Shown: in pieces, positions 50,837 to 52,419 of the stretch | Numbering within the stretch: position 1 is the stretch's first letter | Layout: each line of letters opens with the position of its first letter | Origin: Octopus vulgaris | Taxonomy: Eukaryota | DNA: 64,000 nt | NCBI GenBank assembly: GCA_951406725.2 | Contig: OX597831.1 | Coordinates: 21,018,001-21,082,000 of the forward strand | Direction of reading: 5' to 3' | The notes under the pieces: generated by a model | Databases searched by the model: none | What the model saw: the letters and a program-made list of their open reading frames with translations, nothing else | What the model was told of the DNA's origin: nothing | Made by a program: the position numbers and the translations under genes

Positions 50837-51050
50837 TTCAAATGCCATTACTTTGGCGCGTTGAGACCCGAAAAAACCAGCCTGCAGCTAATAATTAGCA
50901 GCAGTCAATTTATCGGTTAGAGAACATATTTATTTATATACAATTAATTAAGTAAAGGCATTTGAAAGATACATTCGAATGTAATAGGTTGAACTCCATG
51001 CACGCGATACTCCGGTATCGTTTTTGCATCTAGTCCAGCAAATTGCATTT

Positions 51051-51130
51051 ATAACGGGCCATGCTGATGAATGCTACAGTTATCCTTGCGGATAATAATA
51101 GCCGAAACTGATCAGTACATGGGTAATTAT
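51051..51130 (+). ncRNA. Type I hammerhead ribozyme, copy 1
   Basis: CCAUG-CUGAUGA-AU GCUA CAG UUAUCC UUGC GGAUAA UAA UAGC C-GAAA-CUGAUCAG-UA^CAUGG. The core is intact. Stem I extends by AUAA/UUAU across an internal loop. Predicted cut after 51117. Confidence 0.85.
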
Positions 51131-51555
51131 TTTATTTCGTATATTTTCACTTGTTTATTACTTTGGTTTTGAGCTGAGTTTGATTTGAGAACATAATCTT
51201 TTGTGGCGAATGGCGATTTGACGTCTATATCTAGCATGTTGACTGTCCACTTTTCGTGTTCAGTTCTTAATTAGTATATATAAATATTTTAATCTTCGGA
51301 TTCTTTTTTAATATGCTAGACCACTGGTTTTAATTGATAAATATCAATTTCTACCCTTAATTAATTTTATATAAATAAATATGTTCTCTAACCGATCAAT
51401 TGACTGCTGCTAATTATTAGCTACAGGCTGGTTTTTTCGGGTCTCAACGCGCCAAAGTAATGTCATTTGAAAGATACATTCGAATGTAATAGGTTGAACT
51501 CCATGCACGCGATACTCCGGTATCGTTTTTGCATCTAGTCCAGCAAATTGCATTT

Positions 51556-51635
51556 ATAACGGGCCATGCTGATGAATGCTACAGTTATCCTTGCGGATAA
51601 TAATAGCCGAAACTGATCAGTACATGGGTAATTAT
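51556..51635 (+). ncRNA. Type I hammerhead ribozyme, copy 2
   Basis: Identical motif at +505 bp. Predicted cut after 51622. Confidence 0.85.
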
Positions 51636-52060
51636 TTTATTTCGTATATTTTCACTTGTTTATTACTTTGGTTTTGAGCTGAGTTTGATTTGAGAACATA
51701 ATCTTTTGTGGCGAATGGCGATTTGACGTCTATATCTAGCATGTTGACTGTCCACTTTTCGTGTTCAGTTCTTAATTGGTATATATAAATATTTTAATAT
51801 TCGGATTCTTTTTTAATATGCTAGACCACTGGTTTTAATTGATAAATATCAATTTCTACCCTTAATTAATTTTATATAAATAAATATGTTCTCTAACCGA
51901 TCAATTGACTGCTGCTAATTATTAGCTACAGGCTGGTTTTTTCGGGTCTCAACGCGCCAAAGTAATGTCATTTGAAAGATACATTCGAATGTAATAGGTT
52001 GAACTCCATGCACGCGATACTCCGGTATCGTTTTTGCATCTAGTCCAGCAAATTGCATTT

Positions 52061-52140
52061 ATAACGGGCCATGCTGATGAATGCTACAGTTATCCTTGCG
52101 GATAATAATAGCCGAAACTGATCAGTACATGGGTAATTAT
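52061..52140 (+). ncRNA. Type I hammerhead ribozyme, copy 3
   Basis: Identical motif at +1010 bp. Predicted cut after 52127. Confidence 0.85.
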
Positions 52141-52370
52141 TTTATTTCGTATATTTTCACTTGTTTATTACTTTGGTTTTGAACTGAGTTTGATTTGAGA
52201 ACATAATCTTTTGTGGCGAATGGCGATTTGACGTCTATATCTAGCATGTTGACTGTCCACTTTTCGTGTTCAGTTCTTAATTGGTATATATAAATATTTT
52301 AATCTTCAGATTCTTTTTTAATATACTAGACCACTGGTTTTAATTGATAAATATCAATTTCTACCCTTAA

Positions 52371-52419
<49 letters not shown>

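What the first reader, a model, noticed from the sequence alone, without database searches (positions are those of the whole stretch)
50837..52377. Tandem 505-bp non-coding array with an intact type I hammerhead ribozyme in every unit: candidate cephalopod retrozyme / circular-RNA element
Seen: three near-identical units (period exactly 505 bp, third one partial), no ORF. Each has CCAUG-CUGAUGA-[stem II GCUA..UUAUCC-UUGC-GGAUAA..UAGC]-C-GAAA-CUGAUCAG-UA-CAUGG. Established: tandem type I HHR repeats define metazoan non-LTR retrozymes (newt and schistosome satellites, mussel and coral circRNAs), and HHRs also occur in Penelope-like element pLTRs. Inference: plus-strand transcription would self-cleave after 51117, 51622 and 52127. 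That releases 505-nt monomers able to circularise and be re-inserted by a PLE reverse transcriptase, and reiterative copying of a circle would explain a 2.8-mer. The unit is longer than most metazoan retrozymes I know of, and its homogeneity implies a recent insertion. Caveat: the first stem II pair is non-canonical (A.C).
Basis: partly seen in the sequence, partly recalled or inferred. Interest (0 to 1): 0.9.

Follow-up and report, generated by a model that had tools for sequence, protein, structure and literature searches.

The report
Ribozyme-bearing Penelope-type mobile tandem repeat
A 505-base non-coding repeat with a hammerhead ribozyme motif in every unit is one of hundreds of copies spread through this animal genome, and the ends of those copies match the insertion pattern of the genome's own Penelope-like jumping genes, so it is likely a 'retrozyme' that their enzyme copies from a circular RNA.

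Summary
The array is real: 50950-52377, period 505, 2.83 units, one type I hammerhead (HHR) per unit. The unit belongs to a dispersed non-coding family (624 HHR matches, control 0) with two sister families 56-63% identical. Insertions follow Penelope-like (PLE) rules: 101 of 107 arms end at one of two fixed internal sites, mostly on (TA)n. In 38 of 42 two-armed loci, one arm ends at each site; the genome's autonomous Neptune-type PLEs show the same pattern (3 of 3). Copies read through the predicted cut (at most 5 of 524 break there), and young arrays carry private variants fixed in all units. This fits repeated copying of one monomer, likely a circle. No PLE ORF is attached and no partner was found by sequence. 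The window's HHR has U·C instead of G10.1-C11.1 and is predicted to cut as a dimer. Cleavage and circles are untested; 1 of 9 frog retrozymes cut in a 2026 preprint. Verdict: new member of the known animal non-LTR retrozymes, with unusually clear mechanistic footprints. The scan noted similar PLE-type arrays in other genomes.

The parts
50837..50952 (-). Inverted arm: 116 nt of unit sequence spanning the unit junction, joined head-to-head to the direct array; its outer end is not one of the two canonical 3' ends (likely trimmed)
50950..52377 (+). Direct arm: 2.83 head-to-tail copies of the 505-bp non-coding unit, 5'-truncated, ending at internal site E2
51059..51122 (+). Type I hammerhead 1 (5-bp stem I, core at 51064, bulged nt after A9, long interrupted stem II, palindromic stem III); predicted cut after 51117
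51564..51627 (+). Type I hammerhead 2; predicted cut after 51622
52069..52132 (+). Type I hammerhead 3; predicted cut after 52127
51230..51320 (+). Predicted stem, conserved in three sister families, that encloses site E1 (repeated in each unit at +505); candidate signal for the reverse transcriptase
52277..52295 (+). E1: TA-like internal site about 165 nt after the cut (also 51267-51285 and 51772-51790); a 3' end in 53 of 107 arms elsewhere, read through here
52364..52377 (+). E2: second internal 3'-end site about 255 nt after the cut (about 90 nt beyond E1); the end used by this insertion
52377..52420 (.). (AT)n run abutting the 3' end, the inferred target
50430..50838 (-). Flank, not part of the element: high-copy repeat fragment with a 104-aa open frame, cut off by the insertion (LINE-like by recalled resemblance; no Pfam hit)

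Best explanation
This is one insertion of a dispersed, protein-free repeat family whose ends follow Penelope-like (PLE) insertion rules, and it was likely made by a PLE reverse transcriptase/endonuclease copying a circular 505-nt RNA round and round. SHOWN: tandem units each with a covarying type I hammerhead; hundreds of copies on many contigs; 3' ends at two fixed internal sites on (TA)n; random 5' breaks; two tail-out arms, one ending at each site; read-through of the cut site; private variants fixed across all units and both arms of an array. INFERRED steps: (1) A multimer array is transcribed. (2) Neighbouring hammerheads pair through their palindromic stem III and cut after GUA. (3) The 505-nt monomer is ligated to a circle, in which the core is predicted to be tied up in an inactive rod. 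(4) A Neptune-type PLE protein, probably a dimer, nicks both strands of a (TA)n site and starts cDNA at E1 on one strand and E2 on the other. (5) Each cDNA runs up to about 5 times round the circle. (6) The two cDNA ends are joined at short microhomologies, giving the head-to-head junction. The window copy is an older, probably attenuated member whose left arm is short and trimmed.
For: Family: 187 matches among 38 scored of 1639 candidates, full-length ones 87-100% identical; 624 HHR-pattern matches, control 0. Ends, 107 arms in 63 loci: E1 53, E2 48, other 6; 85 of 101 canonical ends are followed by >=3 TA; 42 of 63 loci are two-armed. Of those 42: 38 E1+E2, 0 same-same, 4 with a non-canonical end. 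Autonomous PLEs in the same genome (781-aa ORF with RT, CX4CXXC linker and GIY-YIG) also end on (TA)n with an optional ~30-37-nt tail, and 3 of 3 two-armed loci carry the tail on one arm only (L085, L075, L109). [quoted passage not shown] The cut site is no stop: of 524 genome copies of the 22 nt after the cut, 515 are preceded by GTA and at most 5 break within 3 nt of it; 124 of 124 aligned crossings have no indel. Monomer bottleneck, 27 young arrays and 142 segments: private variants are 56 single, 10 fixed in all units (7 in both arms) and 4 intermediate. Fixed-private per array (0.37) matches singles per unit (0.39). All 7 singles seen in more than one array sit on different haplotypes. 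HHR structure: 96% of cells paired, 4 pairs with double changes, versus 26-44% paired when slid (9 sequences). Folding: the active monomer costs +5.4 kcal/mol, the dimeric active fold 0.0; the circle folds at z = -4.4 with the core paired at p>=0.97.
Against: No cleavage, transcript or circle was shown. In the 2026 preprint only 1 of 9 predicted dimers cut in vitro, and HHR cleavage was not needed for PLE insertion in vitro. The window HHR has lost G10.1-C11.1. No autonomous partner shares sequence with the unit, so the enzyme is assigned from the insertion pattern only. Six intermediate-frequency variants occur, several in contiguous runs of units (L009, L167, L176, L183), and the window array shows a similar split at two positions. 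So some later duplication or conversion, or mixed templates, does occur. Only 27 young arrays were sampled, picked as best hits or long arrays; a homogeneous unsampled master array could give fixed variants without a circle.
Confidence: 0.68

Rival explanations
1. Same PLE-driven insertion, but the template is an uncut linear multimer transcript of an existing array; the hammerhead cuts rarely or not at all and no circle is needed.
For: Read-through of the cut site fits this equally well. Uncleaved RNA was the dominant substrate for the anole PLE in vitro. The monomer fold is predicted inactive and the base of stem II is weak. Some arrays have mixed units.
Against: Variants shared between arrays are nearly always fixed in every unit (26 fixed, 2 intermediate); no unit-specific variant was inherited on a shared haplotype. 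Arms reach 5.4 units, so each would need a longer parent. Core and stems are kept, with compensatory changes, across three families 56-63% identical.
Confidence: 0.2
2. The unit is the terminal repeat (pLTR) of an autonomous PLE not sampled here; short pieces insert and then grow locally by unequal crossover, the route suggested in the 2026 preprint.
For: The HHR has the PLE signature. A few variants occupy contiguous runs of units. Only 150 of 6136 and 150 of 10012 endonuclease candidates were scored.
Against: 0 of 20 solo-HHR loci have a PLE ORF upstream. PLE proteins hit 5 of 125 family loci, each as a separate neighbour. A unit profile finds no pLTR in 76 PLE-ORF stretches, some overlapping. 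Where copies of all three families extend past the unit start, they wrap into more unit. 56 single versus 4 intermediate private variants argue that arrays were born multi-unit.
Confidence: 0.07
3. The template is the cleaved linear monomer, and the RT builds tandems by jumping end to end at the cut site.
For: It also gives a monomer bottleneck. One copy lacks the nucleotide at the cut (L222) and up to 5 break near it.
Against: 124 of 124 crossings are indel-free and 151 of 151 parsed junctions are intact; breaks at the cut are at most 5 of 524. End-to-end jumps are expected to leave stops and small indels (recalled from R2 RT, not tested here).
Confidence: 0.05

Closest known systems
Metazoan non-LTR retrozymes (Cervera & de la Pena 2020, PMC7229834: passages plus sections 14 and 17 read; Li, Clavereau & Pollet 2026, bioRxiv 10.64898/2026.07.22.740005: parts 1-3 of 5 read)
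   Same: Non-coding tandem units with a type I HHR in each, GC under 45%, dispersed multimers, co-occurring with PLEs; proposed circle intermediate and PLE mobilisation; a mismatch at the base of helix II also occurs in axolotl HHR_Amex2.
   Different: Unit longer than the 150-450 bp of Cervera 2020 but inside Li's 51-972 bp. The HHR looks like PLE HHRs (bulge after A9, long helix II). No homology to an autonomous pLTR was found, unlike 21 of 57 Xenopus families. Insertion ends are not analysed in the passages read; here they follow a strict PLE rule. Cleavage and circles are shown there, not here.
EN+ Penelope-like elements, Neptune type (Craig et al. 2021, PMC8557442, passages; Cervera & de la Pena 2014, PMC4209133, passages; Frangieh et al. 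2024, PMC11167929, parts 1-2 of 4)
   Same: 5' truncation, partial tandems, inverted 5' copy, tail at one end only, two internal start sites, (TA)n bias, HHR with bulge after position 9 and palindromic helix III.
   Different: No ORF. The tail is about 90 nt instead of 30-40. Arms run up to 5 units. Both start sites are TA-like, so they could pair with the target, whereas the anole PLE starts at non-homologous sites.
Non-autonomous Chlamys PLEs such as MRC1 of Chlamydomonas (one passage in PMC8557442)
   Same: Non-autonomous PLE making multicopy head-to-tail insertions.
   Different: Those generally share 3' sequence with an autonomous family, and most Chlamys lack HHRs; this family has an HHR and no sequence-matched partner.

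Membership tests
Metazoan non-LTR retrozyme | Type I HHR in each of two or more consecutive tandem units | tested here: met
   3 of 3 units; covariation
Metazoan non-LTR retrozyme | No protein-coding capacity; GC under 45% | tested here: met
   Longest stop-free frame 47 aa; GC 33.7%
Metazoan non-LTR retrozyme | Unit of a few hundred bases | tested here: met
   505 bp: above 150-450, within 51-972
Metazoan non-LTR retrozyme | Dispersed multi-copy family (monomers to multimers) | tested here: met
Metazoan non-LTR retrozyme | No LTR, primer-binding site or polypurine tract | not tested
   No PBS or PPT search was run; the 63 loci show tandem arms, not LTR pairs
Metazoan non-LTR retrozyme | Self-cleavage as monomer or dimer | not testable with these tools
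   Folding predicts dimer-dependent cleavage for the window variant
Metazoan non-LTR retrozyme | Accumulates as circular RNA | tested here: inconclusive
   Only contigs of runs guessed to be RNA were available; genomic pattern fits a circle
Penelope-like element (insertion pattern) | 5' truncation, partial tandems and inverted 5' copy | tested here: met
   42 of 63 loci two-armed; 5' breaks spread over the unit
Penelope-like element (insertion pattern) | [quoted passage not shown] | tested here: met
   101 of 107 arms at E1 or E2; 38 of 42 loci E1+E2, none same-same
Penelope-like element (insertion pattern) | Microsatellite (TA)n target bias | tested here: met
   85 of 101 canonical ends
Penelope-like element (HHR signature) | Extra nt between 9 and 10.1, G10.1-C11.1, palindromic helix III | tested here: inconclusive
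   Bulge and palindrome are met in the window; the pair is U·C here, and G-C in 16, G-U in 108 of 139 parsed copies
Autonomous PLE or its pLTR | RT plus GIY-YIG ORF flanked by the repeat | tested here: not met
   sampling of PLE families incomplete
Rfam hammerhead families | Match to a covariance model | tested here: not met
   No hit at gathering threshold or at E<=10

The most novel reading that the evidence does not exclude
These arrays are a genomic record of rolling-circle target-primed reverse transcription. A dimeric Neptune-type PLE enzyme primes both strands of a (TA)n site on one circular RNA at two fixed sites about 90 nt apart, and every insertion passes through a single monomer. 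The three sister families (56-63% identical, all protein-free) are an old lineage of RNA circles that parasitise PLEs by a conserved 3' structure rather than by being recent offshoots of a pLTR.
Probability: 0.45. Interest if true: 0.65.

Novelty: new member of a known kind. Interest (0 to 1): 0.45.

Why it matters
The kind of element is known; how it moves is not settled. A 2020 review states that animal retrozymes show no conserved motif pointing to the element that mobilises them (PMC7761336, passage). The 2026 preprint argues for PLEs from co-occurrence and pLTR homology, and raises local amplification by unequal crossover. Here the insertion ends themselves point to PLE machinery, with the same pattern as autonomous PLEs in the same genome. 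The variant pattern favours arrays born multi-unit from one monomer. A young subfamily (identical units on different contigs), intact candidate enzymes (781- and 775-aa ORFs) and two mapped start sites make the circle-template model directly testable. Searches 'retrozyme'+'cephalopod', 'hammerhead ribozyme'+'octopus', 'Penelope-like'+'twin priming'+'tail'+'inverted' and one search listed no paper on such a family or such an end analysis. Subscription papers, Repbase/Dfam entries and supplements were not seen.

Tried and rejected
Rfam: no hammerhead match. Tandem Repeats Finder was no help: its period limit is 500 and its output was cut before this region. Expression: no listed holder is on record as RNA. 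Four contigs from two runs guessed to be RNA start at 51623/51624, right after the predicted cut. I rejected this as cleavage evidence, because a common variant at 51653 puts a 31-mer graph branch at exactly 51623. Contigs crossing the cut exist in those runs but cannot tell uncut RNA, circle or DNA apart. Partner search: the 781-, 775- and 574-aa PLE families and other fragments share no detectable sequence with the unit. The two strong profile hits were independent insertions (L090, L186); two weak hits (E 0.036, 0.76) were not pursued. Three 5' breaks 4-5 nt upstream of the cut (L005, L019, L026) are within chance for 107 arms. The first descriptor script had a matching bug and was redone; an automatic cross-family HHR alignment was misaligned and not used. 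A crude regex tally of ends in sister families B and C mis-called some internal sites and is not counted. CTGATGA at 52635 does not fold as an HHR. Rows left out of counts: two divergent arrays (L168, L169), one 92%-identical segment of L175, columns covered by fewer than 3 units, indels, and the TA-like and stem III columns, L169 (cut by the stretch edge). In one search one arm of L173 was split by an insertion and a few 5' positions are chaining artefacts. No earlier notes exist for this genome.

Full report
OBSERVATION. The window holds a direct array at 50950-52377 with period 505 (2.83 units; 98.8% over 938 bp). Each unit carries a type I hammerhead: 5-bp stem I, CUGAUGA at 51064/51569/52074, a long interrupted stem II, GAAA, a palindromic stem III and GUA, with predicted cuts after 51117, 51622 and 52127. 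A descriptor finds only these three sites in the window and 0 in 20000 shuffled units. Rfam does not detect them. The unit has no frame over 47 aa and 33.7% GC. On the left it cuts into a high-copy repeat fragment.

THE RIBOZYME. On nine natural variants the hammerhead fold is 96% paired with four doubly changed pairs, against 26-44% when partners are slid (the sequences are related, so the shuffle numbers are not probabilities). Cervera & de la Pena 2014 list the PLE-type signature as an extra nucleotide after position 9, G10.1-C11.1 and a palindromic helix III (passages). Read this way, the window copy has a bulged A and U10.1·C11.1. Among 139 parsed copies the pair is G-U in 108, G-C in 16, U·C in 14 and A-U in 1. 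The window monomer prefers an inactive rod in which the core pairs with the stem III palindrome (active fold +5.4 kcal/mol; +2.0 for the young subfamily). For the natural two-HHR stretch the dimeric active fold costs 0.0 and two monomeric folds cost 14.6. In the circular monomer the core is paired at p>=0.97, and the circle folds better than 60 of 60 shuffles (z -4.4). These are predictions. The 2026 preprint found cleavage in 1 of 9 predicted dimers.

THE FAMILY. The unit gives 187 matches among 38 scored of 1639 candidates. An HHR pattern has 624 matches, control 0; in the first 100 listed, nearby same-strand HHRs are about 500-540 bp apart. A young subfamily has identical units on different contigs, while the window array differs about 1% internally and 1.9% from its nearest sampled relative. 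Two sister families have their own HHRs and also wrap round as tandems: B (547 bp) and C (about 520-540 bp). Pairwise identities are 56-63%. All share a 3' motif (1751 matches, control 0). A stem enclosing the first end site is predicted in four of five folded sequences and partly in the fifth.

INSERTION PATTERN. I mapped 107 arms in 63 loci (18 best hits, 20 solo-HHR loci, 19 long arrays, 6 picked by the 3' motif). 3' ends fall at E1, about 165 nt after the cut (53), or E2, about 255 nt after it (48), with 6 elsewhere; 85 of 101 are followed by (TA)n. 5' ends are scattered. 42 of 63 loci have two tail-out arms: 38 have one arm at E1 and the other at E2, none has the same end twice, and 4 (including the window) have one non-canonical end. 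The genome has intact EN+ PLEs: a 781-aa ORF with RT and GIY-YIG matches, a 775-aa family, both with the CX2-5CXXC linker used to define Neptune/Nematis, and a third family (L075). The 781-aa and L075 families end on (TA)n with an optional tail, and in 3 of 3 two-armed loci only one arm has it. Craig et al. 2021 describe these PLE features (passages), and Frangieh et al. 2024 show in vitro that the tail lies between two internal RT start sites and that both target strands are extended. PLE machinery is therefore the likely author of these insertions (inference, about 0.9).

NOT AN ORDINARY pLTR, AS FAR AS SAMPLED. None of 20 solo-HHR loci has a PLE ORF upstream. Two PLE proteins hit 5 of 125 family loci. 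In four I saw intervening sequence or opposite orientation; the fifth lies about 1 kb away by coordinates. A profile of the three units found no pLTR in 76 PLE-ORF stretches, some overlapping. Only 150 candidates were scored in each endonuclease search, so a rare partner is not excluded.

TEMPLATE. The predicted cut is not a stop. Of 524 genome copies of the 22 nt after it, 515 are preceded by GTA. Of the other 9, four run through with small changes and at most five break there. 124 of 124 aligned crossings are indel-free. A free cleaved monomer is thus unlikely; a circle or an uncut multimer remains. In 27 young arrays (142 segments), variants private to one array are single (56), fixed in all units (10, of which 7 in both arms) or intermediate (4). 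Variants shared between arrays are fixed (26), single (10) or intermediate (2). All 7 shared singles lie on different haplotypes; a rough simulation expected about 2 (95th percentile 5) but used fewer draws than that set and no CpG bias. Fixed-private variants per array (0.37) equal singles per unit (0.39), as expected if each new array copies one parental unit. Against a clean picture, several intermediates form contiguous runs, and the window array is split at two positions next to its inversion junction. Later duplication or mixed templates therefore occur in a minority. Circle: about 0.7; uncut multimer: about 0.2.

EXPRESSION. Untested in effect: no holder is on record as RNA, and an apparent start of contigs at the cut is an assembly-graph artefact.

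COMPARISON. It works like, and meets the sequence definition of, animal non-LTR retrozymes (Cervera & de la Pena 2020; Li et al. 2026, which sampled no mollusc). The functional criteria could not be tested. It inserts like a non-autonomous PLE, comparable to MRC1. A 2026 octopus repeat annotation has no occurrence of 'hammerhead' or 'ribozyme' in its main text. Earlier notes of this scan report PLE-type tandem arrays on TA in other genomes; I did not check them.

VERDICT. A real feature and a new member of a known kind. Its value lies in the strict two-end rule shared with resident PLEs and in the monomer bottleneck, which bear on the open question of how retrozymes move. Interest 0.45.

Noticed in passing
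L088:581-2018 and 1939-4281; L206:875-2548 and 2458-4785 (+ strand): Both intact Neptune-type PLE families have a long upstream open frame (479 and 557 aa stop to stop) overlapping the start of the RT/GIY-YIG frame, whereas canonical EN+ PLEs are described with a single ORF. No Pfam hit above cut-off for the 479-aa frame.
   Followed up: partly
L088 about 5170-5215; L075 about 4790-4835: The autonomous PLEs carry their own hammerhead-like motifs near the 3' end: one with U3 and A8 in place of C3 and G8 (a compensatory pair, from recall), one with a U·U at the base of stem II. Not folded or tested.
   Followed up: no
L109 (family B), L126/L160 (family C): Sister families B (1832 candidates) and C (2950 candidates; older, 85-92% between copies) have different HHR sequences but the same layout and 3' stem.
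   Followed up: partly
window 20268-26963: A 5.6-kb CCAA-rich array with 126-bp period switches to the opposite strand at about 25862 and is followed by A/T-run repeats (skew).
   Followed up: no
window 15671-16222 and 34943-35498: Two trimers of a 184-bp unit, in opposite orientations, of an abundant SINE-like repeat.
   Followed up: no
window 604, 40327 and 57019 (+): Other CTGATGA sites with partial hammerhead-like or hairpin context; none passes the type I descriptor.
   Followed up: partly
window 52420-52730: The right flank is another repeat, partly similar (84%) to window 7408-7536 and to three fetched loci.
   Followed up: partly
L175:599-1087: The outermost unit of a young array is 92% identical to the reference and has another subfamily's stem III: a chimeric or nested insertion.
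   Followed up: no
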